IMG/VR virus record: IMGVR_UViG_2700988815_000001
Coordinates: 34,288 to 98,287 of that record
Source of the DNA: a virus
Taxonomy: Duplodnaviria > Caudoviricetes
DNA: 64,000 bases
Strand: one strand, 5' to 3'
Position numbers and translations under genes: made by a program. This document shows, piece by piece, positions 5,099-53,717 of this stretch; positions within the stretch are counted from its first letter, which is position 1; every line of letters begins with the position of its first letter. The notes below the pieces were generated by a model. The model did no database searches. It had not been told where the DNA came from and saw only the letters and a list, made by a program, of their open reading frames with translations.

Positions 5099-5549
5099 GT
5101 TCGACAACAAAATCCCAGCTCTCCTAAAGAGGCTGGACAAATTAAATGGTACGGAAGTCGAAGTTGGTTTCTTTGAAGAGGATCGTTATGGCCCTGAGAA
5201 CCACAACTTGCCTGTAGCTACAGTAGCTGCTTACAACGAATTCGGTACTGTGCATAACCCACAAAGACCTTTCATGTCTGACACGTTCTCTAGCGATGCT
5301 AACCAAGCCATTATGGCGAGGTTGATGAAGAACGTATTTGTCAGTGCCATGAGCGGCGGGACAGCCACACAAAGGCTGTTGAACATCCTTGGTCGAATCA
5401 CTGGAGAGTTGATGCAAGTTACCATTGCACAATACGCTGCTATGGGCGGTAACTCCAAAGAGACGATTAAGAAAAAAGGCGGTAGAGATACGCCACTGAT
5501 TGACACAGGTAAGATGCTTGAGTCTGTCAGATTCCACATCCACCGTTAA
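5082..5549 (+). CDS. Neck/tail completion protein (HK97 gp10-like)
   Basis: NEFGT...PQRPFM and PLIDTGKM motifs; start moved to ATG 5082. Confidence 0.7.
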   Translation: MGLTIKFDNKIPALLKRLDKLNGTEVEVGFFEEDRYGPENHNLPVATVAAYNEFGTVHNPQRPFMSDTFSSDANQAIMARLMKNVFVSAMSGGTATQRLLNILGRITGELMQVTIAQYAAMGGNSKETIKKKGGRDTPLIDTGKMLESVRFHIHR

Positions 5550-5560
5550 GGAGTATAACA

Positions 5561-5929
5561 ATGAGAAATCCCCCACTGCTCCTAACTGGACATACAACGC
5601 TCGATATTATCCGCCGTGAGGCAGAGACAATCATTCGCGGGCGTCCTAGCCCCGGAGCTGAGAGTACAGTCCAAGTTGTATGCAACGTACAGCCGGTGCT
5701 GAAATCCACAGACACCTACCTCTTGCCAGAAGCTGATCGTACACGTGCGACACTTAAAGTGTACACGAAAGGTGATCCATTGAGACAGCGTAAAGAAGGC
5801 CCAAACGGATATGCTGCTGACCGATTCTATTGGAAAGGTGAGCTGTACGAAGTGATGAAGGTTATTGATTATGACATGGGCGTTCTCAACCATTACAAAG
5901 CCTTGTGCATGAGGGTTGAGCTAACATGA
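5561..5929 (+). CDS. Head closure/stopper protein
   Basis: Beta-rich 122 aa with NVQP and HYKA motifs, neck position. Confidence 0.6.
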   Translation: MRNPPLLLTGHTTLDIIRREAETIIRGRPSPGAESTVQVVCNVQPVLKSTDTYLLPEADRTRATLKVYTKGDPLRQRKEGPNGYAADRFYWKGELYEVMKVIDYDMGVLNHYKALCMRVELT

Positions 5930-6495
5930 ATATCTATCAAGACTTAGAAGACTCTCTTTACAATATCGTCTCTACACTTCACCCAGACTGGAATATCCTC
6001 TTCGCATTTACTAACGCTGCTGAGCCTCAGAATCCTTACCTCGTTATCGACGTAAAGAAGCTGACTCCGATTGGACGTGAGTACAACTCGACACCAACTA
6101 TTGGTGCTGATGATGTGAAGTTGATCCAGACAACAATTCAAGACCACGAAGCAACTGTGAGATTTGAATTTGTTGGTAAGTACGACGATCAAACTTCTGT
6201 GGCTGAAATGGCCCAACAGCTTCAAATTGAGTTGAGGACTCAGAATGGATACTTGCTACAAGCCGAGAATAGACTCTCGCTGTACAGACTGTCCACTCTA
6301 CGCAGACTTCCACTCCCACGGGACACAGACATGTACATGATCTATCAACTGGATTGTGTGTTCGCATACGCTGCTGTACTCACAACAGAACAGGATTACG
6401 CGACAGCCCTTGAAGGCAAAGGCGTATATCACGATGCAAACAGGCCACCAGACTACGTGCTGGAAACCGAATTTGAAATCACTCTACCTACTTAG
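5926..6495 (+). CDS. Tail terminator/neck protein
   Basis: Position immediately before the sheath gene. Confidence 0.55.
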   Translation: MNIYQDLEDSLYNIVSTLHPDWNILFAFTNAAEPQNPYLVIDVKKLTPIGREYNSTPTIGADDVKLIQTTIQDHEATVRFEFVGKYDDQTSVAEMAQQLQIELRTQNGYLLQAENRLSLYRLSTLRRLPLPRDTDMYMIYQLDCVFAYAAVLTTEQDYATALEGKGVYHDANRPPDYVLETEFEITLPT

Positions 6496-6506
6496 GAGAA
6501 TAACGT

Positions 6507-7790
6507 ATGACCGTTCTTACGGATATCATTGAAATCAACATCAGCCGAGAAACTGCTGCTGTTGCTCAAACAAACTTCAACGTGCCTATGTTCGTATCTG
6601 CTCACACCCGCTTTGCAGAACGTGCTCGCACATACTCCAGCCTGACTGCCGTAGCAGAAGACTTCAGCCCAAGTGACTCCGCTTACGTGGCCGCTCAGAA
6701 GCTCTTCGGACAGGTGCTCAAGCCTTCCCAGATCGTAATTGGTCGTCGTCTTGTTCCAAGCTCTACAATCAGCATCCAAGCTGCTGTAGCTGGCACATAC
6801 ACAATGACAATCAACACAATCAACTTCAGCTACGTCGCTACTGGCGTTGACACAACTATCACTATCGGTGCTGGCCTGAAAGCTGCTTACGACGTAACTC
6901 CGGTTTCTGGCGTAACTGTTACAGACAACCTCGACGGTACACTGACTGTTTCTTCTTTGATTGGTTACTCTCTTGAAGTTACAAGCAACATGGGTCAAGC
7001 CAACCAGCCATCTACTGAATCTTGGGTAACAACAATCAACGAAATCACCGTAGTGAACAACACTTGGTATGCCGTGATGATTGAATCCCACGCTGAAACT
7101 GATGTACTTGCTGTAGCTGGTCAGATCGAAGGCATGAAGAAAGTGTTCGCCACATCTTCTCAGTCTTCTGATATCAAGACAACTGCAACAACTGACACAT
7201 TCTCTAAGCTGCAAGACCTTGGCTACCAACGTACTTTCGGTATGTACTCTGCCACTGCTGACGCTGAATTCCCAGAAGCTGCTTGGGTTGGATACCAACT
7301 GCAAGAGCAACCGGGTTCTAACACTTGGGCTTACAAAGCTCTGTCTGGTGTTACAGTGTCCACTCTGTCTGACACAGAATCTACAAACGTCCACACCAAG
7401 AACGGGACAACTTACGAAACTGTAGGTGGCTTGAACAGCACTATCGGAGCTAAGATGTTCGGTGGTGAATGGATCGACGTAATGATCTTTGTTGACTGGC
7501 TAGAACAGCGTATGAAAGAACGTCTGTGGAGCCGCTTGGCTAACAGCAAGAAAATCCCTTACACAGCCGCAGGTGCCGCTATTATCGAAGCTGAGATTCG
7601 TGCTCAGTTGAACGATGGTATCCGTGTGGGTGGACTGGCTAACAGCCCAGCTCCAACTGTAGAAGTGCCTGATGTTCTTAGCGTGTCTGTCAACGCACGT
7701 GCTCAACGTATCTTCGAAGGCATCACATTCGAAGCCCGTCTTGCTGGTGCTATCCACTTCGTTAAAATCTCTGGAACAGTAACCGTTTAA
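6507..7790 (+). CDS. Tail sheath protein (DUF3383-like)
   Basis: PGSNTWAYK, GEWIDV...DWL, KIPYT and LAGAIH motifs. Confidence 0.9.
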   Translation: MTVLTDIIEINISRETAAVAQTNFNVPMFVSAHTRFAERARTYSSLTAVAEDFSPSDSAYVAAQKLFGQVLKPSQIVIGRRLVPSSTISIQAAVAGTYTMTINTINFSYVATGVDTTITIGAGLKAAYDVTPVSGVTVTDNLDGTLTVSSLIGYSLEVTSNMGQANQPSTESWVTTINEITVVNNTWYAVMIESHAETDVLAVAGQIEGMKKVFATSSQSSDIKTTATTDTFSKLQDLGYQRTFGMYSATADAEFPEAAWVGYQLQEQPGSNTWAYKALSGVTVSTLSDTESTNVHTKNGTTYETVGGLNSTIGAKMFGGEWIDVMIFVDWLEQRMKERLWSRLANSKKIPYTAAGAAIIEAEIRAQLNDGIRVGGLANSPAPTVEVPDVLSVSVNARAQRIFEGITFEARLAGAIHFVKISGTVTV

Positions 7791-43258: not shown

Positions 43259-44320
43259 ATGCCTAATCAACTAGAAGCGGCTGCGGGCATTATGCCCGCT
43301 CCGTTCGACTTCAATGCGAAGACCCGTATCATGACGGAGACGGATAGTTACGCTACCGTCTATCCACAATTCTTAGAGTTCGCAGACCAACAGTTCGACA
43401 AACAGTTCTGGACTAACACAGAAATGAAAGTTGAGCTTGACAGGATGCAACTTCTGTTCGATCTTACACCTGCACAACTTCACGCTGTAAAGTTTGTTCT
43501 TCAACTGTTCCTCAAGTATGAGTTGATTGTTGGTGAAGAGTTCTGGAATGGCCTGTTTATCAAGGTGTTCCCAACTCCAGAAGCTAAGGCAATGGCCGCT
43601 GCATTTGCTGCCTTCGAACTGCAAGTTCACGCTCGCTTCTACAACCAACTAAACACACAACTTGGTTTGGACAAAGACGAACACTACCGTGCCTACGCTG
43701 CTAACCCTGAACTGGCTAAGCGTGTTGAATGGCTGGAGAATGTACTGTCTGGTGAAGATAAACTGCTTTCGACTATTGTATTCTCTATGACAGAGACTGC
43801 ACTGTTGTTTGCCAGCTTTGCTATCTTGAAGAGCTTCCAATCTAACGGATACAACAAACTTCCTGTTGTAGTGCGTGGAACTAACCAGAGTGCTATTGAC
43901 GAAGACTTGCACGGCTTTGCTGCTGCTTGGGCAATCAACCAACACTACAAAGAGTTGGGACGACCACTACGTGAAGACACAGCAAGGGTTGAACAAATTT
44001 ACAAGGCGATTCAATACGCCTATGAACACGAATGTCTGATCATTGATCTTGCATTCTTGGAAGACACGCTGAACGGCATGACAAAGGATGACTTCAAGAA
44101 CTACATCAAAGTGAGACTTAACGTCTTCGCTGAACGTCTTGGACTCGACCTTCCATTCCCTGACGTTAAGTCTCCAATCACCAAATGGTTTGAACTGGGA
44201 ACAGACTCTTACAAAATGGTTGACTTCTTCACACCGGGTATGGGTATGGAGTATGAAAGTAGCTGGAACGAGCAAGGCTTTATCGAAGGGTATGTTGAAA
44301 AGGAGAACTTGAGTGATTGA
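43259..44320 (+). CDS. nrdB: Ribonucleotide reductase class I beta subunit
   Basis: ExxH (ELQVH) with downstream Tyr, DEDLH, DFF...Y tail. Confidence 0.9.
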   Translation: MPNQLEAAAGIMPAPFDFNAKTRIMTETDSYATVYPQFLEFADQQFDKQFWTNTEMKVELDRMQLLFDLTPAQLHAVKFVLQLFLKYELIVGEEFWNGLFIKVFPTPEAKAMAAAFAAFELQVHARFYNQLNTQLGLDKDEHYRAYAANPELAKRVEWLENVLSGEDKLLSTIVFSMTETALLFASFAILKSFQSNGYNKLPVVVRGTNQSAIDEDLHGFAAAWAINQHYKELGRPLREDTARVEQIYKAIQYAYEHECLIIDLAFLEDTLNGMTKDDFKNYIKVRLNVFAERLGLDLPFPDVKSPITKWFELGTDSYKMVDFFTPGMGMEYESSWNEQGFIEGYVEKENLSD

Positions 44321-46043
44321 TTATTCTGCACTACGCAAGCAACAAATTGAAGACGGAGTGTGCCCACCGTGGTACACTACCGGAGGCATCCAACTGTTCT
44401 ATGACAAATACTCGTACAACAACGAGACTGTCAAGAGTCGGTTCAAGACTGTAGCTGCTGCACTTGCTGTACACGCTCCAGAGGTGTATCCTGAGTGGTG
44501 GAACGTTGTTCCCTACTGGGCGGGCAAGACTTGGGAAGATGCGTTCTTCCAAGTGATGTGGGACGGCTTCGTAAGCCCATCCACTCCACTGTTGGCAAAC
44601 GGCGGGATTCGTAAGCGAGGAACTACCGTAAGCTGTGCTGGTGGTAACGTAGCCAACAACCTGCAAAACCGTTATGACTTCCTGACCGAAGCTGCTATCC
44701 TGACCAAGCACTCTCACGGTACATCGTACTGCTTGGATGACTGGCCTGCTGAGGGTGACAAGATTCGTGGTGGACGCTCTCAAGGGTTGATGCCTTTGAT
44801 CCGTGACATTATCAATGTGATGGAAGAAGTGGCCCAAGGCCCACGTCGCGGGAGTTGTGCTTACAGCCTACGTCCTCAACACGGTGACTTCGACAAGGTG
44901 TGTGATTACCTGTATGAACGCACTGAGAGTAACAACGTTGGCTGGTTGATTGACGATGAGTTTGTTGACCTGATGAATGATGAAAACGCAGAAGCTTTGC
45001 GTAAGTTTTCCAAGATGCTTGGTGTTAAGATGCCTCGCGGTAAGGGATACTTCACATTCATTGACAAGATGAACCGCAAGTTGGCTAAAGCATTTAAACG
45101 TGCTGGCCTACGAGCAAGAGCGTCCAACTTGTGTCAAGAAACAAACTTGCCAAGTAACGAGAAGTACACATTCAGTTGTGTTATCCTCAACTACAACTTG
45201 GAACTATACCGTAGCTGGCCTGAGCACCTAGTGTTCGTTGGTCAAGTAATGTCTGACTGCAACATCAGTGAATACATTGAGTGCATGGACGAAATGTCCG
45301 AAGAAGACAAGAAGGCTATGGAGAAGATTTACCGCTTCACCACAGAGTTCCGTGCTTTGGGTAGTGGCGTTCTGGGCTGGCATACATTGCTGCAAACTGA
45401 AATGCTGAGTGTTTCTAGCATGGAAGCAATGATGCTGAACATCAAGGTGTTCCGTGGTATTCGTGCTCAAGCTGACAAGGCTAACGAATGGCTGGCATAT
45501 ACACTGGGTGAGCCTGTAGGCTGTGTAGGGCTGGGGATTCGCAACGCCACAATGTTGATGATGCCTCCTACTAAATCCACTGCTGAGTTGATGGCAGGAG
45601 CTTCTGAGGGTGTTGGCCTTGACGTTGCGATGTGCTTCACTAAGCAATCGGCGGGCGGTGAGTTCTTCCGTATCAACAAAGTGTTGCTTGCACTGATCAA
45701 GAAGAAAGGCTTGAACATTGAGCAATGCGTAAGGGATATGAACAAGCATAAAGGGTCTGTCCAGTTTGTTGACTGGCTGACTGACCATGAGAAACTTGTG
45801 TTCCGTACAGGCTTTGAGATTCCTATGGAAGATCACCTGATGCAATGTTCTCAGCGTCAACCTTACATCGACCAAGGGCAGAGCATCAACCTCTACTTCA
45901 CGTCGAATGATACACCGCAGTACATTGGCAAGATTCACAGAATCGCTTTCAACGATCCTAACATCCTGTCGTTGTACTACATCTATTCCATGCGAGGCGC
46001 CGGGGAAATTACCCGTGTTGAATCGTGTGAAATGTGCCAATAA
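44313..46043 (+). CDS. nrdA: Ribonucleotide reductase class I alpha subunit (compact, no evident ATP cone)
   Basis: VSC, NLCQE, PTKST, DQGQS, LYY and C-terminal CEMC. Confidence 0.92.
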   Translation: MIDYSALRKQQIEDGVCPPWYTTGGIQLFYDKYSYNNETVKSRFKTVAAALAVHAPEVYPEWWNVVPYWAGKTWEDAFFQVMWDGFVSPSTPLLANGGIRKRGTTVSCAGGNVANNLQNRYDFLTEAAILTKHSHGTSYCLDDWPAEGDKIRGGRSQGLMPLIRDIINVMEEVAQGPRRGSCAYSLRPQHGDFDKVCDYLYERTESNNVGWLIDDEFVDLMNDENAEALRKFSKMLGVKMPRGKGYFTFIDKMNRKLAKAFKRAGLRARASNLCQETNLPSNEKYTFSCVILNYNLELYRSWPEHLVFVGQVMSDCNISEYIECMDEMSEEDKKAMEKIYRFTTEFRALGSGVLGWHTLLQTEMLSVSSMEAMMLNIKVFRGIRAQADKANEWLAYTLGEPVGCVGLGIRNATMLMMPPTKSTAELMAGASEGVGLDVAMCFTKQSAGGEFFRINKVLLALIKKKGLNIEQCVRDMNKHKGSVQFVDWLTDHEKLVFRTGFEIPMEDHLMQCSQRQPYIDQGQSINLYFTSNDTPQYIGKIHRIAFNDPNILSLYYIYSMRGAGEITRVESCEMCQ

Positions 46044-46051
46044 TGGCGAAC

Positions 46052-46070
46052 GGGGCTTCGGCCCCACTTT
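46052..46070 (+). terminator. Hairpin / terminator with UUCG tetraloop
   Basis: GGGGC-TTCG-GCCCC then ACTTT. Confidence 0.55.
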
Positions 46071-46084
46071 AATGGAGATATGAA

Positions 46085-46441
46085 ATGACACCTGTAATCA
46101 ATACAACTGTCTTGACAACTGGCGGCACTCTTGTAACCACAATCAATGACGCTGGGGCAACCCTCGTTCTGACTGGTGACACTATCGCACCTGACTTCTC
46201 TATCGGCCTCTCGCCAGCTCAGAGCCGCGTCTACGCGACGTTCTTTGACTCTGCTGAGGACAGCCGTGACCTAGAGAATCTGATGGCCCTACAGGCCCAG
46301 TTTGAGACAGAAATGGGTGCTGAGCTGATTGCTTACAACAGCCAAGCTCTGACCAAAGACCCTGTGACCAAGGTCTACACTCAAGCTGTCACACGAATTG
46401 CTTTCGATTCGTACCAAAAAGGACTTGACGGCCCGCCGTAA
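46085..46441 (+). CDS. Hypothetical protein
   Basis: RBS GGAG. Confidence 0.6.
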   Translation: MTPVINTTVLTTGGTLVTTINDAGATLVLTGDTIAPDFSIGLSPAQSRVYATFFDSAEDSRDLENLMALQAQFETEMGAELIAYNSQALTKDPVTKVYTQAVTRIAFDSYQKGLDGPP

Positions 46442-46485
46442 GTCTGTAGAATAGCCCTCATCGCTAACGCCTTGAGGGCTTTTTC

Positions 46486-46767
46486 ATGAAACCGTTTAAA
46501 GTCGAAGCAGAGTACACCTTCACAGTCAGGTACAACAAAGAGAAGTTCACTTACCGGGAGGCTAGAGGATACCCTGTGACAGAAATCCTCTGTGACGCTT
46601 GGCAGATATACGGAAGAGTCTACGGGATAAAAGCCCAACTGTGTTCAGAGTCTGGGTTGCCAAACGGGGTTTTGGAAATCAAAGGCAGCAAAAAGGCTAA
46701 GACAGCAGAAGCTGCTATGTACGTCCTAGAAAGATTCCGCAAATTTGAGAACTGGGAGGAAGTATGA
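46486..46767 (+). CDS. Hypothetical protein
   Basis: Downstream of TTGACG-N16-TAGAAT promoter. Confidence 0.55.
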   Translation: MKPFKVEAEYTFTVRYNKEKFTYREARGYPVTEILCDAWQIYGRVYGIKAQLCSESGLPNGVLEIKGSKKAKTAEAAMYVLERFRKFENWEEV

Positions 46768-47003
46768 ACGGAGCAAAGAAGTTTCACAGTCCAGATGGCC
46801 CAGCCTTCAATGAAGGTGAGGTGTGGGTAGGTTCTTCGAACTGTCCAGTAACAATCTGGAAAACTGTGCGGTACGGTGTTGACAAGTGGGACGTTGACGT
46901 GCATTATTGGGTTCCGATGGACGCACGGCGTTCTGTGGAATGTGTCAAGAACGCTTGGAGCTTCCAAGTGCGTTACCAACATAAAGCTGATCTGGAGATT
47001 TAA
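46764..47003 (+). CDS. Hypothetical protein
   Basis: RBS GGAGG, ATGA overlap. Confidence 0.6.
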   Translation: MNGAKKFHSPDGPAFNEGEVWVGSSNCPVTIWKTVRYGVDKWDVDVHYWVPMDARRSVECVKNAWSFQVRYQHKADLEI

Positions 47004-47004
47004 A

Positions 47005-47139
47005 ATGGAAATGATTGCAGGTTGGGTATTGACAATGGGGTGCGCTCTGGGTATCATCACCCTCTCTAAAGACTACGTTCCAGTTTGTCTGGTTGGGATG
47101 GTTGTTGGGGCACTGCTGTTGAATGGGGCACTACAATGA
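47005..47139 (+). CDS. Small membrane protein
   Basis: Two hydrophobic segments, RBS GGAG. Confidence 0.5.
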   Translation: MEMIAGWVLTMGCALGIITLSKDYVPVCLVGMVVGALLLNGALQ

Positions 47140-47336
47140 CCCGATACAAAATCTTCATTGAGCGTACATACGGCACCGGCTGGTATGACGGTGATGAATA
47201 CTGTGATCTGGAAGTAAGGCCCGATCCGTTTGGCCCTTGGTACAAAGTGACTGAGGTAGACAAACTGCTCGCCAAACAGAAAGATAAGATGCAAAGAATG
47301 CAAAAATACATTGACAAGCTTGAAGGGAGAGCCTAA
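47136..47336 (+). CDS. Hypothetical protein
   Basis: ATGA overlap. Confidence 0.55.
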   Translation: MTRYKIFIERTYGTGWYDGDEYCDLEVRPDPFGPWYKVTEVDKLLAKQKDKMQRMQKYIDKLEGRA

Positions 47337-47337
47337 C

Positions 47338-47703
47338 ATGCGTTGGATCAGTAAGCAGTTCTTGTCGCCTTGTGCTGATGAAACTGGCAGCATGGTTTGC
47401 CAAGTGGAGACACCGCTGGTTAAACACCTGTACATCAGCAACTACGATCACATGGGTCGTGGCAATGGTGAGCGTCGAATCAATCCTGATCTGGACGCTT
47501 ACGTCACATTCAGGGCTTGCCACGGTGAGCCAGTTAAGTTAGACTTCTGTGCTCACGATCAGAAGAGCTTTGAGAAACGCCTGACAAAGATCAGCTTCAT
47601 GATCCAAGAGCTGGAAGGTATGCGTCACCAGATGACTGAAATGTGGTACAGCCACCTCCGTGACATTGAATTCAAACTCAAAGAGGAAGAGAAGGATGAA
47701 TGA
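47338..47703 (+). CDS. Hypothetical protein
   Basis: RBS GGGAG. Confidence 0.6.
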   Translation: MRWISKQFLSPCADETGSMVCQVETPLVKHLYISNYDHMGRGNGERRINPDLDAYVTFRACHGEPVKLDFCAHDQKSFEKRLTKISFMIQELEGMRHQMTEMWYSHLRDIEFKLKEEEKDE

Positions 47704-47851
47704 TAAAGCTTGGGCAATGTTTAGCTTGACAACTCTCCTGAGTGTGTTAGGATTCACGGCTGGAATGTGTGGTGAGCACGGTGTTGCAGGAGCCTGCGGC
47801 GGCGGGGCATTCTGCACTGGTTTGCTCACTTGGGCAATGACAACATATTAA
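47696..47851 (+). CDS. Small membrane protein
   Basis: Hydrophobic, overlaps upstream stop. Confidence 0.45.
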   Translation: MNDKAWAMFSLTTLLSVLGFTAGMCGEHGVAGACGGGAFCTGLLTWAMTTY

Positions 47852-47861
47852 GGAGAACAAC

Positions 47862-48089
47862 TTGGTAACAATCTACAGTAAAATCCCATGCACCACTTGC
47901 GAACAGGCAAAGAACGTGTTAAAGTCTCGCGGAGTTGAGTTCGAAGTGCTGGTACTGGACAAGGACTATACGATGGAGAACCTGATGGACAAGCTCGATG
48001 AGCTGGGCATGATGGGCTTCCGCACCTTCCCCTTGATCGTTCAAGACGGCAAGGGTTTCACTTTCAACACTATTGGAGAAATCAAATGA
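47862..48089 (+). CDS. Glutaredoxin / NrdH-like redoxin
   Basis: IYSK..CTTC..AK, RTFPLI; TTG start with RBS AAGGAG; near nrd genes. Confidence 0.85.
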   Translation: MVTIYSKIPCTTCEQAKNVLKSRGVEFEVLVLDKDYTMENLMDKLDELGMMGFRTFPLIVQDGKGFTFNTIGEIK

Positions 48090-48283
48090 GCATGAGCACC
48101 CACGAAGCAACAGTTTATATCTCGGGCATGATCGAAGCCATCCAAGTGCTGCACGCACAGGCTCGGGCTGTTGCCGATGAACACGGCATTGCATTTGATA
48201 TCACCTTTGAAGGTGGTCGCGCATACAACACCACGGCTGATTACCAGCCTGACCATTGGTCGTCTAGCTACGGCACCTGCTAA
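48086..48283 (+). CDS. W-x-S-S-x-x-x-C family protein 1
   Basis: ...AVADEHGIAFDI...HWSSSYGTC*. Confidence 0.65.
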   Translation: MSMSTHEATVYISGMIEAIQVLHAQARAVADEHGIAFDITFEGGRAYNTTADYQPDHWSSSYGTC

Positions 48284-48492
48284 TGGCTATCATGTTTGAT
48301 GTAGAAGCAGACAAGTATCGTGATCTGTTCACCATCAAAGAGTTTGGGGAGTGCGTCAAGTATGGCGCCTTCATCCCAGACGATGGCTGTGGCTACTTCG
48401 GTACTGAAACTCATTACTCCTATGATTTTGGGGTTTGGAGTGCAGTAGAGATTCCCGCTGGTGCGACTCACGTCCACTGGTATAACAAGTAA
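48283..48492 (+). CDS. Hypothetical protein
   Basis: TAATG coupling; FIPDDGCGY...THVHWYNK. Confidence 0.6.
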   Translation: MAIMFDVEADKYRDLFTIKEFGECVKYGAFIPDDGCGYFGTETHYSYDFGVWSAVEIPAGATHVHWYNK

Positions 48493-48502
48493 AGGAGAGA
48501 AC

Positions 48503-48916
48503 ATGAGCATCAACAACCTAGAAGTATTTGAAGTAGCACGTATCGCTGACAGTATTACCCTGTTGCAAGACACCATTTATCGTGGTAACGTAGCTGCTGG
48601 CTGGTGGAAGAACATCAGCACAAATGAAGCCTTCCCAAAGGGCGACATTACCCTGATCCTGTCCAAGCTGGCGCTGGTGCATAGCGAGGTAAGTGAAGCC
48701 ACTGAGGGCGTTCGTAAGAACCTGATGGACGACAAGCTGCCGCACCGTCCAATGGCCGAAGTGGAACTGGCTGACGCCATCATCCGTGCATTCGACCTTG
48801 CTGGTCACGAAGGTTGGAACTTGGCTGGTGCAATTATCGAGAAGCTGTATTACAACGACACCAGATTGGATCATAAAGTCGAGAACCGTTTGGCCGAAGG
48901 GGGTAAGAAAGCATGA
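48503..48916 (+). CDS. MazG-like nucleoside triphosphate pyrophosphohydrolase
   Basis: LALVHSEVSEATE, ELADAIIR..D, EK..YN..R motifs. Confidence 0.82.
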   Translation: MSINNLEVFEVARIADSITLLQDTIYRGNVAAGWWKNISTNEAFPKGDITLILSKLALVHSEVSEATEGVRKNLMDDKLPHRPMAEVELADAIIRAFDLAGHEGWNLAGAIIEKLYYNDTRLDHKVENRLAEGGKKA

Positions 48917-49356
48917 AGACTCTTATGTACGTTGCAAACCTGATCGTTCAAGGTGAGCTGGATATCGAGGGTGCTGACCGTATCGTGACTGACAACCAGT
49001 GTGTATACGCTAAGAATGGCCGTGACTACATTGACGATCACTATCTTGACAGTGAGCGTCTTGGGCCAGATAAATACGACTTTGAACTGGCAGAAGCCAC
49101 CTTCTCTGTAGAAGAAGTGAAAGCTTACATTGACAGTGGTACATTTGCTGCTGAGCATGTGGCCTATCAAAAAGCCAAGCGTGAGGCCGTGGCACGTGTT
49201 GCTGAGCTGATTGCTGCTGTAACACCACAGATGAATGAGTTGCTTTCTCTGGCGAATGAGTATAACATTCCAGCGGATATCAAGGTTGGCAAATACACCA
49301 ACGACTTCCGTCTGATCGACGCCGTGGACTGGGATTCCAGCTCCATGTACTGCTGA
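48913..49356 (+). CDS. W-x-S-S-x-x-x-C family protein 2 (with N-terminal extension)
   Basis: ...SLANEYNIPADI...DWDSSSMYC*. Confidence 0.65.
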   Translation: MKTLMYVANLIVQGELDIEGADRIVTDNQCVYAKNGRDYIDDHYLDSERLGPDKYDFELAEATFSVEEVKAYIDSGTFAAEHVAYQKAKREAVARVAELIAAVTPQMNELLSLANEYNIPADIKVGKYTNDFRLIDAVDWDSSSMYC

Positions 49357-49421
49357 TGGCACACTCAAAAGAGTTTCTAGGTTGTCTGGAGACTCTCTTG
49401 AACATAAAATTGGAGGATAAG

Positions 49422-49682
49422 ATGCCTACACTACCTGAAACAATCGCTGCACTTGAGCGTGAGCTGGCTCTTGCCAAAGAACAGCACGCAAAGGAGGTTG
49501 TACGCAACCGTCCTCAAGCTGCTGCTGCTCTGTCTGAGATTAAGGGTAAGATTGATGCCCTGATCCGTGAAGCGGAACAGATTGCAAGTGCTGCTGATAT
49601 CGTGTTCTACTACTCTAACGGGTATGAAGAATTTTCGTGGCAAAACAAAGAAGACTGGTCGTACTCCAGTCAAGACTGCTAA
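49422..49682 (+). CDS. W-x-S-S-x-x-x-C family protein 3
   Basis: RBS GGAGG; ...EAEQIASAADIVF...DWSYSSQDC*. Confidence 0.65.
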   Translation: MPTLPETIAALERELALAKEQHAKEVVRNRPQAAAALSEIKGKIDALIREAEQIASAADIVFYYSNGYEEFSWQNKEDWSYSSQDC

Positions 49683-49700
49683 TCTCAAAAGGAGAATATT

Positions 49701-50117
49701 ATGACCAAGCAATACGTTAGCTTCACCACTGAAAACGCACGTGTAGAACTGGACGGTGGCGTCCTCCTGCTTCAAGTGACTCGCTCTTACGGCTATGAGG
49801 GTGAACAACTCTCCAGCTACGACCACTACGACATTGAAGGTCTGGAAGGCGAGCCAATCGCTCAACTGGCTCAACTCGCCAAGGCACTCAAGAACCTGCC
49901 AGAAGAAGGCGTGTTCGACATGGATCAAGAGGCTCTGCAAGATTTCCTGATGGAGTGGGCTGGTGACACTGCTGAAATGGCTGAGCTGCCATTCACCTTC
50001 ACTGACCGTTTCGGTGACGTGCAAACCTACACTCCAGCTTCTATGTGGGAAGCGTCCGGTGGTTGTGAGTGGGAAGAGTCTGCTCAATACGGCTCTGACT
50101 ACGGTTGGAACGTGTAA
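49701..50117 (+). CDS. Acidic protein with WExS motifs near the C-terminus
   Basis: RBS AAGGAG; ...MWEASGGCEWEESAQYGSDYGWNV*. Confidence 0.65.
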   Translation: MTKQYVSFTTENARVELDGGVLLLQVTRSYGYEGEQLSSYDHYDIEGLEGEPIAQLAQLAKALKNLPEEGVFDMDQEALQDFLMEWAGDTAEMAELPFTFTDRFGDVQTYTPASMWEASGGCEWEESAQYGSDYGWNV

Positions 50118-50371
50118 TGGGCGCTTATGTAAGCAAGACCTCATCCCAAGAAAAGCAGGACGCTGCCAAGGCCATCAACGAACTGCTTGAGTCCGCTCAA
50201 AGCCTCGTATGGGAAGCCGAGAGTATCGCTGATGAGCACGACCTATCGTTCTCTGTGAATTTCGGTGCTTACGGTATGGGTGGCTCGTACAGCCCTGTTA
50301 AAGAGGGTGATGTGGACGAATGGGGCGACCCTGTGGAAAGTGGCTGGAACGCTTCCTCGCAATCCTGCTAA
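50117..50371 (+). CDS. W-x-S-S-x-x-x-C family protein 4
   Basis: TAATG coupling; ...EAESIADEHDLSFSV...GWNASSQSC*. Confidence 0.65.
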   Translation: MGAYVSKTSSQEKQDAAKAINELLESAQSLVWEAESIADEHDLSFSVNFGAYGMGGSYSPVKEGDVDEWGDPVESGWNASSQSC

Positions 50372-50378
50372 AAGAATT

Positions 50379-50420
50379 AGCCCCGGCCCCTTGACAGGAG
50401 TCGGGGCTTTCTATTAGTAT
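50379..50420 (+). promoter_or_regulatory. Terminator hairpin carrying the -35 hexamer of the next promoter in its loop
   Basis: AGCCCCGGC-CCC-TTGACA-GGA-GTCGGGGCT-TTCT; TAGTAT 18 nt after TTGACA. Confidence 0.6.
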
Positions 50421-50451
50421 AACCACATCGAATATCACTGAGGAAACAAAC

Positions 50452-51426
50452 ATGCTGCTCATTGGCTCCCGCGCTCTTGTAGCAAACAACCCTGAACTGG
50501 AAGGCGTTCGTCGCACCATTGATTGGGATTTCATCTGCACCATCGAGCAATTCACTGCTTGGCATAAGGCTAACAAGGCCAATCTGCAATTCGCTGTGCC
50601 TACCCAACAGGGTAAGTATTACCATGCACGTGACAAGGATGGTATGAACTATGAGTTTGAGTTGGCTTGGCCGGGTACATCTGCTGAGGATTTCCTCAAG
50701 CACTACGGCCTGCTTGACCATGTGTACAAGCCTGAGATTGGCCCAGTGCCAGCAATCAACGCTGACCTGCTGATCATCAAGCTGAGCCACCGTTACAAAC
50801 GTAACAGTCCACACTTCCTGAAAACCATGAGTGATATCAAATATCTCCGTGAGAAAGTTGGGGTTGAGTTCTTTGAGAAATTCATGCAGAACGGCATCAA
50901 TGAGCCAATCCTCAAGAAGCGGGAAGCTGAGTCTTACGACTACGCACACCCTCGACTGAACGTCAGTTCAAGGGATTTCTTCAATGGTGATGGTGTGAAT
51001 TATGTGTACGATCACGACTCGATTCATGAAGCTGTAGCACTCAATTGGTGCCTTGGCCCTAAACCAGCCTACACCTTCTATATGAAGGACGGCTCTGAGG
51101 TTATGACCAGCAAGGTTAAGTTCTTCTCTGTTGACGAGAGTATCCGTCTTGAGGGTGTCTATGAAGAGTCCTGTGTACTCGCCCTTGAGCGTTCTCAGAT
51201 TCCTCATGGCTTGGGTAAGGAAGGTGGGCCATCGGCTCGCTGGAGCTTTGAAATGGCTCTGATGAAGGTGTGTACCAGCATCACCAGCGGATGGTTCCGT
51301 GAATATGCTTGGGAAAATTATCAGAAAGTGCTTGACCTGTATAACGAGTTGGGCGAGAATGACTACATCGAACGGTTCAACAGAAACAACCACTTACTGA
51401 AACCATACACTGGAGAGAACTACTAA
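50452..51426 (+). CDS. Putative nucleotidyltransferase-fold protein
   Basis: N-terminal LIGSRAL...DWDF (GS + DxD of Pol-beta-like NTases); IKLSH..., YDHDSIHE, LALER. Confidence 0.65.
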   Translation: MLLIGSRALVANNPELEGVRRTIDWDFICTIEQFTAWHKANKANLQFAVPTQQGKYYHARDKDGMNYEFELAWPGTSAEDFLKHYGLLDHVYKPEIGPVPAINADLLIIKLSHRYKRNSPHFLKTMSDIKYLREKVGVEFFEKFMQNGINEPILKKREAESYDYAHPRLNVSSRDFFNGDGVNYVYDHDSIHEAVALNWCLGPKPAYTFYMKDGSEVMTSKVKFFSVDESIRLEGVYEESCVLALERSQIPHGLGKEGGPSARWSFEMALMKVCTSITSGWFREYAWENYQKVLDLYNELGENDYIERFNRNNHLLKPYTGENY

Positions 51427-51683
51427 TGTTGCTTAACCCTGACATGATGAAGTGGAAATTGACTGGCCCAACTGGTGTGAAGTTCTTCTACGCAAGTGAA
51501 GAACACATGGTGAAGGCTGTTACCGAAGGTGGTAGCAGCTACACCAAGATGGCCTGCTACGTGATTAACCCACAAGGGCGTTTCATTAAGAACCGTAGTG
51601 CTGGTGATCAATTTCCCAACTTGCTTCTTGAAATGGGTCGTGATAAAGTAAACGAATTCTTTGACTTCATGGAGACTGTGTAA
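51426..51683 (+). CDS. Hypothetical protein
   Basis: TAATG coupling. Confidence 0.6.
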   Translation: MLLNPDMMKWKLTGPTGVKFFYASEEHMVKAVTEGGSSYTKMACYVINPQGRFIKNRSAGDQFPNLLLEMGRDKVNEFFDFMETV

Positions 51684-52078
51684 TGGCTGTTAAGAAGCGT
51701 CCTTTCAATATGTCCGAAACCGAGTTCGACCTGTACGCTGCAAAGCATCTGGTCTGGAAGGCAGAGAACGCCAAGAAGCGTGGTATTGAGTTCAGCCTCA
51801 CTCACACTGGCATGAAGAACCTGTTGGGTGCCAAGCGTTGCTATTACACTGGCATCCCACTCACTAAGAGCACTGGCAAAGAAGCTGAGCTACAGCTCAG
51901 CGATTTCACTATTGACCGTATCGACGGCTCTAAAGGCTACGTCAAGGGCAATGTGGTAGCCTGCTGCCATGCTGCTAACCAGATGAAGGGTCAGCTTGAA
52001 TCGTTGGGTGTTGTTGGTCTGAAAGCTGGCCGTGCAATCTTCGACAAAGCAATCAAACGAATTGAGGGCAACAAATGA
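51683..52078 (+). CDS. HNH-like endonuclease
   Basis: CYYTG...TIDRID...GY..GNVVACC..ANQMKG. Confidence 0.75.
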   Translation: MAVKKRPFNMSETEFDLYAAKHLVWKAENAKKRGIEFSLTHTGMKNLLGAKRCYYTGIPLTKSTGKEAELQLSDFTIDRIDGSKGYVKGNVVACCHAANQMKGQLESLGVVGLKAGRAIFDKAIKRIEGNK

Positions 52079-52404
52079 AAAAGTTATTGACCGCTGCACT
52101 GATTATGGCTACAATCTCGCTCGCTGGTTGTGAAGAAGCCAAACTCTTGAGTGAGAAACGCACTACGATGGTTGTTGAGAGTGTCTACCTGACCTCTAAG
52201 AGCAACAGCAAAGTAACTCTTCGTGAAGTGGAGAGCGGCTATGTCTGGAAGGATCAGCGTCTGAGCTGTTCCCGCTCTCGGGCACGAAACGTGGTGATTG
52301 GTAGTAAATGGGACGTGACTGAACAAGCCTACGTCTATCCTGAATCCCAGCGATACTTCAACCAATTGGTTGGTGTCTCCGCTATCTGTGATAAGAGTAA
52401 CTAA
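52075..52404 (+). CDS. Putative lipoprotein
   Basis: MKK + hydrophobic leader + LAGC lipobox. Confidence 0.7.
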   Translation: MKKLLTAALIMATISLAGCEEAKLLSEKRTTMVVESVYLTSKSNSKVTLREVESGYVWKDQRLSCSRSRARNVVIGSKWDVTEQAYVYPESQRYFNQLVGVSAICDKSN

Positions 52405-52407
52405 AAT

Positions 52408-52623
52408 ATGGCACATACCTGCCCCGGCTGTAACCTCCCAATGATTGATGGTCAAGTGTTTAATGGCTTGCTAAAATGCCACTGGGATTGCCAAGATGTG
52501 GTAAGAGAGAAGATGGGCGAGCGTAACGCTAACGACTTGATCCAGTATCGGATTGATGCTAGACTGCGTATGGAAGGACTTGATCCTGACCACCATCTTT
52601 GGAAGAAACTCGGAGGATCGTAA
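52408..52623 (+). CDS. Hypothetical Zn-finger-like protein
   Basis: CPGC...HWDC. Confidence 0.55.
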   Translation: MAHTCPGCNLPMIDGQVFNGLLKCHWDCQDVVREKMGERNANDLIQYRIDARLRMEGLDPDHHLWKKLGGS

Positions 52624-52850
52624 TGACAACTGATGACAAAATCAAATACATCCAAAGCTTCATGAGGCTTGTGACGACTGCAACAACTTACCGTGACGCA
52701 AGTGCCCACAGTAACTTTGTAAGGGGTCTGATCGGTGCATGGCACGCTGACCACACCCTGCCAAGCGGTGAATACACTCGCCTTATGGGCGATCTGGAAA
52801 TCGTCATGGCTGTAAAACGTAATCTACCAACAGAAGGGGATGTAGTGTGA
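52623..52850 (+). CDS. Hypothetical protein
   Basis: RBS GGAGG, TAATG coupling. Confidence 0.6.
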   Translation: MTTDDKIKYIQSFMRLVTTATTYRDASAHSNFVRGLIGAWHADHTLPSGEYTRLMGDLEIVMAVKRNLPTEGDVV

Positions 52851-52990
52851 GAAAGATGCAAGCAGAAGAGTTTGGCAAGGGCTATGAGTACGAGAAAGCT
52901 AAGCGTGAAGAACGCAAACAAACTCGCAACACACGTGATCGCAGACGCTCTGGACGGGGCGTTTGGGAAGCGAAGCCAGCAGACGAATAA
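52847..52990 (+). CDS. Small Arg-rich protein (47 aa), paralog of 58017-58157
   Basis: GTGA overlap; MRKMQAEEFGKGYEYEKAKREERKQTRNTRDRRRSGRGVWEAKPADE. Confidence 0.65.
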   Translation: MRKMQAEEFGKGYEYEKAKREERKQTRNTRDRRRSGRGVWEAKPADE

Positions 52991-53064
52991 GCTGGACAGA
53001 AGAGTGGAACGGGTGTATAATACTCTTGAGGCAAGGAATGCCTCCTTCACATAAGGAGCCTAGT

Positions 53065-53259
53065 ATGGCTGATACAACAACACCCGACGCAAGGGTAGCA
53101 TACTATGCGAAAGAACAAGTCCGTATTCTGAAATTGAAACTGGCTGCATTCAGGGAATGCTTGAGGACGACCACTATCCCTAAGCGTAAGATGTTCCTTG
53201 AAGCTAGGATTGAAGAGTTGACTACTGCTTTGTTTGAACGCACTGGAACACGCTACTAA
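53065..53259 (+). CDS. Hypothetical protein
   Basis: RBS TAAGGAG; TATAAT upstream. Confidence 0.6.
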   Translation: MADTTTPDARVAYYAKEQVRILKLKLAAFRECLRTTTIPKRKMFLEARIEELTTALFERTGTRY

Positions 53260-53275
53260 TTATGCCCGCCCTAGC

Positions 53276-53299
53276 ACCCGCTTCGGCGGGTTTCTTTTT
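53276..53299 (+). terminator. Rho-independent terminator (UUCG loop)
   Basis: ACCCGC-TTCG-GCGGGT-TTCTTTTT. Confidence 0.85.
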
Positions 53300-53375
53300 A
53301 CCTAAAATAAAGCTTGACTCTGTTCCTGATCCCTGTAGAATGAGCCACATCAAGACAAACAACGGAGCAACAAAC

Positions 53376-53717
53376 ATGACACTCACCACCATCCAAAACA
53401 ATATCGTTCCAGTGTTCGTAGCCTACGAAGTTCATGATGAGTATGGCCGTAACAAGAGTGTGTTGAGCTTACACCGCACCAAAGCTGATGCTGAGGTTGC
53501 AGCACGTAACAAGGGATGGTATGGTGGCCCCGGTGATGTCCAGATGAAGCACGCAATTGAAGATGGCCTTGATCTTTATCTGCTTGCAGACTTCCGACCA
53601 ACATGTTATGCTGATGTTACTGAACTGAGAGAGCGGCAACGCCAACGAGCTGTAGAAGCTGCCCTTGCTAAACTCACACCAGAAGAAATCGAAGCACTCA
53701 AAGGAGAATTCAAATGA
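53376..53717 (+). CDS. Hypothetical protein
   Basis: Promoter TTGACT-N16-TAGAAT upstream; C-terminal ALAKLTPEEIEAL. Confidence 0.65.
   Translation: MTLTTIQNNIVPVFVAYEVHDEYGRNKSVLSLHRTKADAEVAARNKGWYGGPGDVQMKHAIEDGLDLYLLADFRPTCYADVTELRERQRQRAVEAALAKLTPEEIEALKGEFK

What the first reader, a model, noticed from the sequence alone, without database searches (positions are those of the whole stretch)
48086..51426. Tandem paralogs ending in W-x-S-S-x-x-x-C beside a nucleotidyltransferase: candidate peptide-modification or decoy system
Seen: four genes end in the same 8-residue pattern with Trp at the first position, Ser at the fourth and a terminal Cys: WSSSYGTC (48086-48283), WDSSSMYC (48913-49356), WSYSSQDC (49422-49682), WNASSQSC (50117-50371). 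They also share an upstream helix-turn-strand (AVADEHGIAF, SLANEYNIPA, QIASAADIVF, SIADEHDLSF) despite otherwise low identity. A fifth gene carries WEASGGC. The next gene has Pol-beta-type GS...DxD motifs plus a His/Asp-rich C-terminal domain, and a MazG-like pyrophosphatase sits inside the cluster. Inference: a leader-plus-core arrangement like RiPP precursors, with the enzyme nucleotidylating or ligating the Ser/Cys tail; or a diversified set of decoys/inhibitors for host defence enzymes. The enzyme gene has its own promoter, so the link rests on adjacency only.
Basis: partly seen in the sequence, partly recalled or inferred. Interest (0 to 1): 0.85.

Follow-up and report, generated by a model that had tools for sequence, protein, structure and literature searches.

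The report
Cys-tailed phage proteins with nucleotidyltransferase partner
Four to five small acidic proteins of this Pseudomonas phage end in the same Trp-Ser-Ser-Cys tail and sit just before a nucleotide-transferring enzyme, a pairing kept in very different phages and never studied, so the two probably work together.

Summary
W..S...C$ hits 4 of 1086 window ORFs, all at 48086-50371. A profile built from unrelated phages ranks these four and the fifth gene as the top 5 of 1687 genome ORFs.

73 of 80 enzyme-centred viral loci carry a tail ORF on the enzyme strand, and about 78 do with relaxed patterns. 50 of 54 loci found through the small protein have the enzyme just downstream; three misses are contig ends. 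No third gene family is shared.

The enzyme (Pfam DUF7277+DUF7275) keeps G-S...D-x-D...E. It folds most like the MenT1 and MenT3 tRNA nucleotidyltransferase toxins and ANT(2'') (Z 10.2, 9.6, 9.8), with no sequence-level DUF1814 match.

My best reading is an enzyme-plus-partner module in which the tail docks in the acceptor site as a substrate mimic or regulator. True serine modification is the main rival, and the RiPP reading is not supported. An orphan enzyme genome and tail-less distant clades show the enzyme has a function of its own.

The chemistry is untested and I found nothing in print. This scan noted the same module before on other DNA: 78 findings in at least 66 genomes.

The parts
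48086..48283 (+). Tail protein 1, 65 aa, pI 4.7, ends WSSSYGTC
   Evidence: ORF. phrog_899 E 9e-7. Independent family HMM E 1e-5. pI.
48283..48492 (+). 69-aa gene embedded in the cluster (phrog_14149, unknown function). It is not a tail protein and not part of the conserved module.
   Evidence: phrog_14149 E 6e-33. No tail motif. Not among the families shared across loci.
48503..48916 (+). MazG-like nucleotide pyrophosphatase, embedded in the cluster. This placement is a feature of the Otagovirus lineage only.
   Evidence: phrog_5658 'pyrophosphatase' E 2e-72. The homolog in phage M5.1 is annotated pyrophosphatase. Absent from the VR5 and Acj61 modules. Start chosen by homology and ribosome-binding site.
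48913..49356 (+). Tail protein 2, 147 aa, pI 4.4, ends WDSSSMYC; it has a long N-terminal extension
   Evidence: phrog_23943 E 3e-81. Independent family HMM E 1e-4 over its last 65 residues.
49422..49682 (+). Tail protein 3, 86 aa (108 aa if it starts at 49356), ends WSYSSQDC
   Evidence: phrog_899 E 1e-10. HMM E 1e-3. GGAGG ribosome-binding site before 49422.
49701..50117 (+). Divergent paralog, 138 aa, pI 4.05. It has an internal W-E-A-S-G-G-C followed by a 16-residue acidic extension ending GWNV.
   Evidence: Aligns with the others. Rank 5 of 1687 ORFs but only E 0.12. phrog_17937. The same family is found in 11 of 80 loci.
50117..50371 (+). Tail protein 4, 84 aa, pI 4.05, ends G-W-N-A-S-S-Q-S-C. 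This is the most conserved type, with a Y-G-M-G-G hairpin.
   Evidence: phrog_899 E 4e-23. HMM E 9e-19. 56 homologs found, and the tail is invariant in the 49 rows aligned.
50391..50420 (+). Sigma-70-like promoter match (TTGACA-18-TAGTAT) between the last tail gene and the enzyme
   Evidence: Consensus match only. 16 sites were found in the region against 7.4 +/- 2.7 expected.
50452..51426 (+). Nucleotidyltransferase-fold enzyme, 324 aa, DUF7277 (residues 1-84) plus DUF7275 (residues 106-307)
   Evidence: Pfam E 9e-22 and 2e-71, phrog_2141 E 1e-118. G5, D24 and D26 invariant; S6 87 of 88; E68 85 of 88. AF2 model pLDDT 90.3. Best fold matches are MenT1, ANT(2'') and MenT3.

Best explanation
SHOWN: this is a two-gene-family phage module. 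One family is a set of one to five small, acidic, fast-diverging proteins. They share a helix-hairpin core and an almost invariant C-terminal G-W-x-S-S-S-x-x-Cys tail. The other is a single Pol-beta-superfamily nucleotidyltransferase (DUF7277+DUF7275), encoded just downstream, with an intact metal-binding G-S...D-x-D...E set and a bi-lobed, MenT-like fold.

INFERRED: the conserved tail is the handle by which every paralog docks into the enzyme. The most likely site is the acceptor pocket, where a MenT-type enzyme would hold an RNA 3'-end. Trp would serve as a stacking anchor and the Ser hydroxyls would stand in for the acceptor hydroxyl. The tail proteins would then gate or retarget an enzyme whose own substrate is something else, probably RNA or tRNA 3' ends. 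The different bodies would give different conditions or targets. Transfer of a nucleotide or phosphate onto a tail serine during docking is possible but not required by this reading.
For: 1. Linkage, enzyme to tails. 73 of 80 enzyme-centred viral loci (enzyme 40-81% identical; contigs from 5 kb to 390 kb) carry at least one W..S.{2,3}C$ ORF on the enzyme strand, and 52 carry at least two. There are 168 hits on that strand against 1 on the other, among 25,859 ORFs. 161 of the 168 end within 3 kb upstream of the enzyme start. Five of the 7 misses carry relaxed variants. The linkage holds in 27 of 28 enzyme clusters at 60% identity, or 23 of 28 with the strict pattern.

2. Linkage, tails to enzyme. 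50 of 54 loci found through the small protein alone have the enzyme downstream on the same strand. Three misses have at most 749 bp of contig left. The fourth genome holds two enzyme copies 25-30 kb away, one of them beside another tail gene. 31 of 52 loci in this set are not in the first set.

3. Named phages show the same order: VR5, Acj61, Mx1, RsoM2USA and M5.1.

4. The tail family is the only other gene family shared across the neighbourhoods: 70 of 80 loci in one BLAST component, against at most 24 loci for any other family.

5. The tail goes with the body. A profile that lacked the last 10 residues retrieved 1157 clusters at 50% identity. Of the best 150, 136 end W..S...C and 8 more end in near variants.

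6. Enzyme fold. MenT1 Z 10.2, ANT(2'') Z 9.8, MenT3/TglT Z 9.6, MenT4 Z 7.8; Foldseek's best match is MenT1 at E 7e-4.

7. Precedent. MenT toxins are controlled by upstream-encoded partners that are unrelated to one another, including the 68-aa helical MenA1, which blocks the active sites (PMC10435456, passages; PMC11375011, abstract).

8. The enzyme has a function of its own. A 97%-complete 165-kb phage genome has the enzyme but no detectable tail protein. Distant short forms and DSS3_VP1 have none within 4 kb. DUF7275 proteins also occur in giant viruses.

9. The tail proteins are acidic: median pI 4.36, and 88% of 144 are below pI 5.
Against: No physical interaction has been shown or predicted.

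The near-invariance of nucleophilic residues (Ser at -3 in 134 of 143, and 131 of 136 in the independent set; terminal Cys) looks more like a chemical site than a mere docking peptide.

One regulator would be enough, so up to five paralogs per genome are not explained by simple inhibition.

In MenA1 the helix binds the toxin, not the C-terminus; its last 17 residues were not resolved in the crystal (PMC10435456).

Fold scores for small-molecule nucleotidyltransferases are about as high as for MenT (ANT(2'') Z 9.8, LnuA Z 7.9), so an RNA substrate is not established.

There is no sequence-level match to DUF1814/AbiEii in Pfam, PADLOC or NCBIfam.
Confidence: 0.45

Rival explanations
1. The tail proteins are the enzyme's true substrates. 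The nucleotidyltransferase puts an NMP, or a phosphate, on a tail serine, or acts on the Cys. This activates or tags a diversified set of small effector proteins: one enzyme, many substrates.
For: Ser at -4 and -3 and the terminal Cys are almost invariant even when the family is retrieved without the tail. One to five paralogs with variable bodies share one tail and one enzyme. Enzymes of this fold class transfer to hydroxyls (ANT(2''), LnuA). MenT1 and MenT3 phosphorylate an active-site Thr or Ser (PMC11375011 abstract). That cis acceptor position is Ser or Thr in only 10 of 88 enzymes here, which leaves room for an acceptor supplied in trans.
Against: The enzyme persists without tail proteins in one near-complete genome, in DSS3_VP1, in short-form clades and probably in giant viruses, so tails cannot be its only substrate. 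No fused enzyme-tail form was found, though that search is weak. There is no mass or binding evidence.
Confidence: 0.27
2. There is no direct interaction. The tail proteins are independent host-directed inhibitors or decoys, with the tail binding a host protein. They merely travel with the enzyme as part of one early-gene cassette.
For: They are acidic, small, fast-diverging, multi-copy early-region genes, typical of phage anti-host proteins. A promoter-like site separates the last tail gene from the enzyme. One tail gene lies 25-30 kb from the enzyme, next to a P-loop protein.
Against: Adjacency and order are kept across enzyme lineages down to 40% identity and across phages of 98 kb to 390 kb. 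Every other neighbouring gene family changes over the same range. Such persistence is hard to explain without a functional tie.
Confidence: 0.13
3. This is RiPP-like peptide maturation. The small genes are precursors whose Ser/Cys tail is processed into a modified peptide, for example a dehydro-Ser plus Cys thioether.
For: The S-x-x-C spacing at a C-terminus resembles Ser/Cys ring-forming sites of lanthipeptide-type peptides; this is recalled and not tested. Several 'precursors' sit beside one enzyme.
Against: The conserved part is the tail and the variable part is the body, the reverse of leader and core. The proteins are 65-147 aa with a conserved domain. No RiPP-class enzyme, protease or exporter is conserved nearby or detected by Pfam. 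The setting is lytic phages.
Confidence: 0.03
4. The link is thiol-based or metal-based. The terminal Cys pairs with the enzyme's invariant Cys274, as a disulfide or by joint metal binding with H188, D189 and H192.
For: C274 is invariant in 88 of 88 enzymes and sits in the most conserved block, K-V-C-T-S-I-T-S-G. Three short-form enzymes without tail partners have Thr there. 70 of 145 tail proteins have no other Cys.
Against: The orphan enzyme (L048) and DSS3_VP1 keep the Cys without tail genes. The Thr change is a single lineage event. I could not measure where C274 lies in the model.
Confidence: 0.05

Closest known systems
MenA1-MenT1 and the wider MenAT / AbiE systems (DUF1814 nucleotidyltransferase toxins with upstream partner proteins)
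   Same: The predicted fold is bi-lobed and nucleotidyltransferase-like, with best matches MenT1 (Z 10.2, 152 residues aligned, rmsd 4.1) and MenT3 (Z 9.6). It has the G-S and D-x-D motifs. The small partner is encoded immediately upstream. In MenAT the partner families are unrelated between systems (PMC10435456, passages), just as the short-form phage enzymes here have a different small neighbour.
   Different: There is no sequence-level DUF1814/AbiEii match. The enzyme is about 130 residues longer than MenT1. The MenT cis phospho-acceptor position is not conserved: 10 of 88. The module is found in lytic phages and in only 6 loci, all from MAGs or metagenome bins, of a pattern-limited scan of 185,579 species genomes, rather than in bacterial chromosomes. 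There are one to five paralogous partners with an invariant C-terminal tail that MenA1 lacks. Toxicity and tRNA targeting are untested.
Small-molecule nucleotidyltransferases ANT(2'')-Ia and LnuA/LinB
   Same: The fold of the N-terminal lobe scores almost as high as MenT: ANT(2'') Z 9.8 over model residues 1-156, LnuA Z 7.9. These enzymes transfer NMP to substrate hydroxyls.
   Different: The matches cover only the N-terminal 140-156 residues. No resistance context is present. The conserved protein partner has no counterpart.
Pfam DUF7277 / DUF7275, PHROG phrog_2141 (enzyme) and phrog_899 (tail proteins)
   Same: Direct members: E 9e-22, 2e-71 and 1e-118 for the enzyme; E 4e-23, 1e-10 and 9e-7 for three tail proteins.
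   Different: All of these are 'unknown function' bins. None records the tail motif or the pairing. I found no paper that names these families.
RiPP clusters with several precursors and one modifying enzyme
   Same: Several small genes stand next to one enzyme, with conserved Ser/Cys at a C-terminus.
   Different: The conservation pattern is reversed, the proteins have folded bodies, and there is no class-defining enzyme, protease or exporter.

Membership tests
MenT / AbiEii (DUF1814, Pfam PF08843) nucleotidyltransferase toxins | Sequence match to the DUF1814/AbiEii profile | tested here: not met
   Pfam scan at E up to 0.1 gave only DUF7275 and DUF7277. PADLOC at E up to 10 gave 0 families. 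NCBIfam gave nothing relevant. A PDB sequence-profile search gave 0 hits.
MenT / AbiEii (DUF1814, Pfam PF08843) nucleotidyltransferase toxins | Bi-lobed MenT-type fold | tested here: inconclusive
   MenT1 Z 10.2, MenT3 Z 9.6 and MenT4 Z 7.8 are top-ranked, and the MenT1 and MenT3 matches span model residues 1-290. But ANT(2'') scores 9.8, and Foldseek gives only E 7e-4 and TM 0.49.
MenT / AbiEii (DUF1814, Pfam PF08843) nucleotidyltransferase toxins | Pol-beta motifs I and II (hG[GS] ... D-x-D) for metal and nucleotide binding | tested here: met
   G5 88 of 88, S6 87 of 88, D24 88 of 88, D26 88 of 88, E68 85 of 88.
MenT / AbiEii (DUF1814, Pfam PF08843) nucleotidyltransferase toxins | Active-site Ser/Thr phospho-acceptor two residues before the first Asp (MenT1 T39/D41, MenT3 S78/D80; PMC10435456 passages and PMC11375011 abstract) | tested here: not met
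   Ser or Thr at that position in 10 of 88 aligned enzymes. The window's own enzyme has T22.
MenT / AbiEii (DUF1814, Pfam PF08843) nucleotidyltransferase toxins | C-terminal motifs III and IV (Lys and Asp needed for toxicity: MenT3 K189 and D211, MenT1 K137 and D152) | tested here: inconclusive
   Invariant K110, K124 and D189 exist. No residue-level superposition was available to equate them.
MenT / AbiEii (DUF1814, Pfam PF08843) nucleotidyltransferase toxins | Growth toxicity neutralised by the upstream partner; extension of tRNA 3' ends | not testable with these tools
   Needs expression, tRNA sequencing and in vitro assays.
Tail-protein family (phrog_899 and relatives) | Helix-hairpin core plus C-terminal W-x-x-S-S-x-x-C | tested here: met
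   Met for four window genes. The fifth gene is borderline at E 0.12. The tail is present in 144 of 150 hits found with a body-only profile.
DUF7277-DUF7275 enzymes (PF23942 + PF23940; phrog_2141) | Matches above the curated Pfam cut-offs | tested here: met
   78.0 and 240.4 bits against a cut-off of 27.
RiPP precursor plus maturase cluster | Conserved leader with a variable core; a class-defining modifying enzyme; a protease or exporter | tested here: not met
   The body is variable and the tail conserved. Only two gene families are conserved in the neighbourhood. No RiPP enzyme domain was found by Pfam.

The most novel reading that the evidence does not exclude
A single Pol-beta-fold enzyme charges a whole family of diversified acidic phage proteins on the serines of an invariant G-W-x-S-S-S-x-x-Cys tail, with a nucleotide or a phosphate. 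That would be a new protein-tagging system, with protein serine as the acceptor in place of an RNA 3'-OH. It would be used by large lytic phages for host takeover or counter-defence, each paralog body aiming the tag at a different host target.
Probability: 0.25. Interest if true: 0.9.

Novelty: new variant of a known kind. Interest (0 to 1): 0.72.

Why it matters
The enzyme is present in 722 of 50,697 deposited phage genomes, 260 of them Escherichia phages; Acinetobacter, Aeromonas, Pseudomonas, Klebsiella and Vibrio phages are also represented. The tail family spans at least 1157 clusters at 50% identity. Yet both are annotated 'hypothetical', and I found no paper on them.

A conserved enzyme-plus-tagged-partner module in well-studied phage groups is directly testable: co-expression, intact mass, tRNA 3'-end sequencing and knockouts. 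It could reveal either a phage version of MenT-type control of translation or a new protein modification. The invariant 8-residue tail is also a simple sequence rule for annotating this family.

Tried and rejected
**Folding.** The single-sequence fold of the enzyme was useless (pLDDT 35.5). The second job, with 88 aligned sequences, gave pLDDT 90.3.

**ESM Atlas.** The 84-aa protein gave only an unnamed viral cluster at score 0.76, and no structure was held.

**Fused forms.** A search for longer proteins with the 84-aa query gave none at E up to 0.001 among 69 candidates. This is weak evidence.

**RNA evidence.** No RNA holder was listed for 48000-51700.

**Cys274-to-tail covariation.** Rejected as evidence. 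The orphan enzyme and DSS3_VP1 keep the Cys, and the Thr change is a single lineage event.

**Third conserved component.** I looked for a protease, kinase, phosphatase or exporter. None was found: every other family occurs in at most 24 of 80 loci.

**MazG, NrdH-like glutaredoxin and RNR neighbours.** These are specific to the Otagovirus lineage and are not part of the module.

**Literature.** Four searches were run.
- DUF7275, DUF7277, PF23940, PF23942: 0 papers.
- phrog_2141, phrog_899, MenT-like, AbiEii-like, ACLAME 1471: nothing on phages.
- Phage nucleotidyltransferase, DUF1814, anti-defense, tRNA repair: nothing relevant.
- The MenT papers were found.

The HIDEN-SEQ paper (PMC13716836, passages only) covers T4, Bas37 and Bas54 and does not mention a nucleotidyltransferase. 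Supplements were closed and may hold gene-level data that I could not see.

**Tail proteins in four enzyme-bearing records.** The search with profile A4 found nothing. That profile is narrow, so it carries weight only for G002, which I rescanned in full with a broader profile and the tail pattern.

Full report
**What is there.** The window is bases 34288-98287 of a 98,287-bp phage genome with direct terminal repeats. It is about 95% identical over this region to Pseudomonas phage phiPsa397, and a related phage record (M5.1) is classed in the genus Otagovirus.

The pattern W..S...C at the C-terminus hits 4 of 1086 six-frame ORFs of at least 30 aa, and all 4 lie here. The fifth gene (49701-50117) has W-E-A-S-G-G-C followed by a 16-residue extension. 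All five align over a helix, a short strand and the tail.

Three of the genes hit phrog_899, and the other two hit their own PHROGs; all are 'unknown function'. I built a profile from 118 tail proteins of non-Otagovirus loci only. It ranks the five ORFs first to fifth of 1687 ORFs in the whole genome, with E 9e-19, 1e-5, 1e-4, 1e-3 and 0.12. No further copy exists elsewhere in the genome. The five proteins are acidic, with pI 4.05-4.7.

**The family.** To avoid circularity I built a body-only alignment of 67 sequences with the last 10 residues removed. I searched it against 1.84 billion cluster representatives.
- 1157 clusters score E up to 0.001, and 254 score up to 1e-10.
- Of the best 150, 136 end W..S...C, 8 end in near variants (a shorter spacing or one extra residue), and 6 lack the tail.
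- In the 143 unique tails taken from enzyme-linked loci, W(-7), S(-4) and C(0) are fixed by the pattern. S(-3) is Ser in 134, position -5 is Ser in 93, Ala in 21 and Pro in 13, and Gly is common at -8 and -9.
- 70 of 145 proteins have no other cysteine.
- Median pI is 4.36, and 88% of 144 are below pI 5.

**The enzyme.** The gene at 50452-51426 matches Pfam DUF7277 (residues 1-84) and DUF7275 (residues 106-307), and phrog_2141. It has 2326 homologs at E up to 0.001 in the 90%-cluster database. It has tblastn matches in 722 of 50,697 phage records.

In an 88-sequence alignment G5, D24, D26, K110, H113, K124, T125, R133, R157, H188, D189, H192, E238, E239, E246, R247, K272, C274, S276, T278, S279, G280, R283, W287 and E288 are invariant. 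S6 is kept in 87 of 88 and E68 in 85 of 88.

The first fold, without an alignment, failed. The second gave pLDDT 90.3 and pTM 0.86.
- Foldseek's best PDB match is MenT1 (8an4, E 7e-4, TM 0.49).
- The independent VIA-align sweep gives MenT1 Z 10.2 (152 residues aligned, rmsd 4.1, model residues 1-290), ANT(2'') Z 9.8, MenT3/TglT Z 9.6, LnuA 7.9 and MenT4 7.8.
- At sequence level there is no DUF1814/AbiEii match in Pfam, PADLOC, NCBIfam or PDB.
- The MenT cis phospho-acceptor position is Ser or Thr in only 10 of 88 enzymes. That position lies two residues before the first Asp: T39 in MenT1 and S78 in MenT3 (PMC10435456 passages; PMC11375011 abstract).

So this is a probably active Pol-beta-superfamily nucleotidyltransferase. 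It resembles MenT in fold, but it cannot be filed as a DUF1814 member.

**The link, tested both ways.**

*Forward.* An enzyme alignment retrieved 80 viral loci with enzymes 40-81% identical, on contigs of 5 kb to 390 kb.
- 73 of 80 have at least one W..S.{2,3}C$ ORF on the enzyme strand, and 52 have at least two.
- There are 168 hits on that strand against 1 on the opposite strand, among 25,859 ORFs.
- 161 of the 168 end between 0 and 3 kb upstream of the enzyme start.
- Of the 7 misses, 5 carry relaxed variants: W-x-x-S-S-C, W-x-x-S-x-C (L073), or a 3-residue extension after the Cys. L048 and L050 are unclear.
- By enzyme lineage (single linkage at 60% identity), 23 of 28 clusters have a strict tail locus and 27 of 28 a relaxed one.

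*Reverse.* A small-protein alignment retrieved 54 loci.
- An enzyme HMM finds the enzyme downstream on the same strand in 50 of them.
- Three misses have at most 749 bp of contig left.
- The fourth (L103) lies in a 305,782-bp genome that has two enzyme-family ORFs 25-30 kb away. One of those sits beside another tail gene.
- 31 of 52 reverse loci are not contained in the forward set.

*Named phages* show the same order.
- Dhakavirus VR5 has five tail genes, then two other genes, then a 46%-identical enzyme.
- Acinetobacter phage Acj61 has three small paralogs upstream (the third ends WSSSYE and lacks the Cys), then a gene with 51% identity over 205 aa.
- Myxococcus phage Mx1 has a 44%-identical enzyme and Ralstonia jumbo phage RsoM2USA a 40%-identical one.
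- M5.1 has an 80%-identical enzyme.

In the pattern-limited scan of one genome for each of 185,579 prokaryotic species, only 6 loci matched, all on contigs titled as MAGs or metagenome bins. 5 of these 6 carry tail-like ORFs upstream.

Clustering all neighbouring ORFs of the 80 loci shows that the tail family is the only other family shared widely. It occupies 70 loci in one component, plus a second tail component of 15 loci. Everything else occurs in at most 24 loci. The MazG-like gene, the 69-aa gene and the NrdH-like glutaredoxin of this window are lineage-specific neighbours.

**Limits of the link.**
- One phage genome, 165,540 bp and estimated 97% complete (G002, locus L048), has the enzyme. 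It has no ORF that matches the tail profile better than E 0.53 and no credible pattern hit.
- DSS3_VP1, whose enzyme is 32% identical, has no tail gene within 4 kb, and none by the narrow A4 profile in the whole record.
- Short forms of about 260 aa occur in Vibrio phage R16F, Gordonia phage Cucurbita and Streptomyces phage Ankus. They keep I-G-S...D-x-D but have no tail genes. Instead they are followed by a different small protein family, present twice in Ankus.
- DUF7275 proteins of giant viruses (Sylvanvirus, Satyrvirus) match the model at E 1.6e-12 and 2.9e-9.

The enzyme therefore has a function that does not depend on tail proteins.

**Mechanism.** What is shown: there are two families; the linkage is tight and directional; the catalytic set is intact; the fold is MenT-like; the partners are acidic and multi-copy with an obligatory tail.

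What is inferred: the tail is the common handle that docks each paralog to the enzyme, probably in the acceptor site.

I prefer a docking, regulator or adaptor role (0.45). The enzyme survives without tails, the nearest structural relatives are enzymes controlled by unrelated upstream partners, and a second lineage of the enzyme has a different small neighbour.

The main rival is true serine modification (0.27). It better explains the invariant nucleophiles and the many paralogs. The two readings merge if the tail is a pseudo-substrate that is itself modified.

Independent function (0.13), a thiol or metal link through Cys274 (0.05) and RiPP maturation (0.03) are less likely.

**Known or new.** I found no paper that names these families or describes the pairing. 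The MenT literature covers bacterial toxin-antitoxin pairs only: PMC7450476, passages; PMC10435456, passages; PMC11375011, abstract and outline.

This scan's own earlier notes report the same module on other DNA, with 78 findings in at least 66 genomes and the same MenT-like reading. They are unchecked AI notes. I reproduced their main claims independently here, and they add no experimental evidence.

I class the finding as a new variant of a known kind: a nucleotidyltransferase with a dedicated small partner. A more radical reading is left open in the section on the most novel reading.

**Not done.** No RNA run was listed. Supplements of papers were closed.

Noticed in passing
L089:4617-4982, L088:4561-4917 and 5414-5725, L090:4399-4689: Short-form (about 260 aa) relatives of the enzyme occur in Vibrio phage R16F, Streptomyces phage Ankus and Gordonia phage Cucurbita. 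They lack tail genes and are followed instead by a different small protein of 96-121 aa that ends ...ITVYE or ...ITKYE. It is present twice in Ankus. Ankus versus R16F gives E 9e-8, and Cucurbita is marginal at E 0.008. This may be a second, unrelated partner family.
   Followed up: partly
model m3841fe29c282 against BFVD: DUF7275-domain proteins of the giant viruses Sylvanvirus (508 aa) and Satyrvirus (571 aa) match the enzyme model at E 1.6e-12 and 2.9e-9. The enzyme family therefore reaches viruses of eukaryotes.
   Followed up: no
L156 (G002:C1, enzyme at about 67.7-68.7 kb) and L048: A near-complete 165.5-kb T4-like genome has the enzyme but no detectable tail protein anywhere in the record. 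The stretch upstream of the enzyme translates like tRNA genes; I did not check this with a tRNA finder.
   Followed up: partly
L103:5968-6246 and 6219-6773: In a 305.8-kb jumbo phage, one tail gene (ending GGWSASSQSC) sits 25-30 kb from the two enzyme copies. It lies directly before a 184-aa P-loop (G-P-S-G-S-G-K-T) protein.
   Followed up: partly
window 47862-48089: An NrdH-type glutaredoxin-like gene (TIGR02194, E 6e-10) ends where the first Cys-tailed gene begins, and the RNR large subunit lies at 44313-46043. This thiol-redox neighbour is not conserved with the module outside the lineage.
   Followed up: partly
window 51683-52078: A 131-aa HNH endonuclease-like gene (phrog_3118, E 2e-42) also scores against PHROGs named 'Srd anti-sigma factor' and 'decoy of host sigma70' (E 2e-18 and 1e-14).
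   Followed up: no
window 46000-53500: 15 of 16 sigma-70-like promoter matches lie on the + strand, against 7.4 +/- 2.7 expected for the region. This fits a multi-promoter early region.
   Followed up: no
L006:8479-10207 and L087:8185-8813: Nicotinamide phosphoribosyltransferase genes lie a few kb downstream of the enzyme in both Acj61 and DSS3_VP1, with a ribose-phosphate pyrophosphokinase as well in Acj61. This may be coincidental.
   Followed up: no
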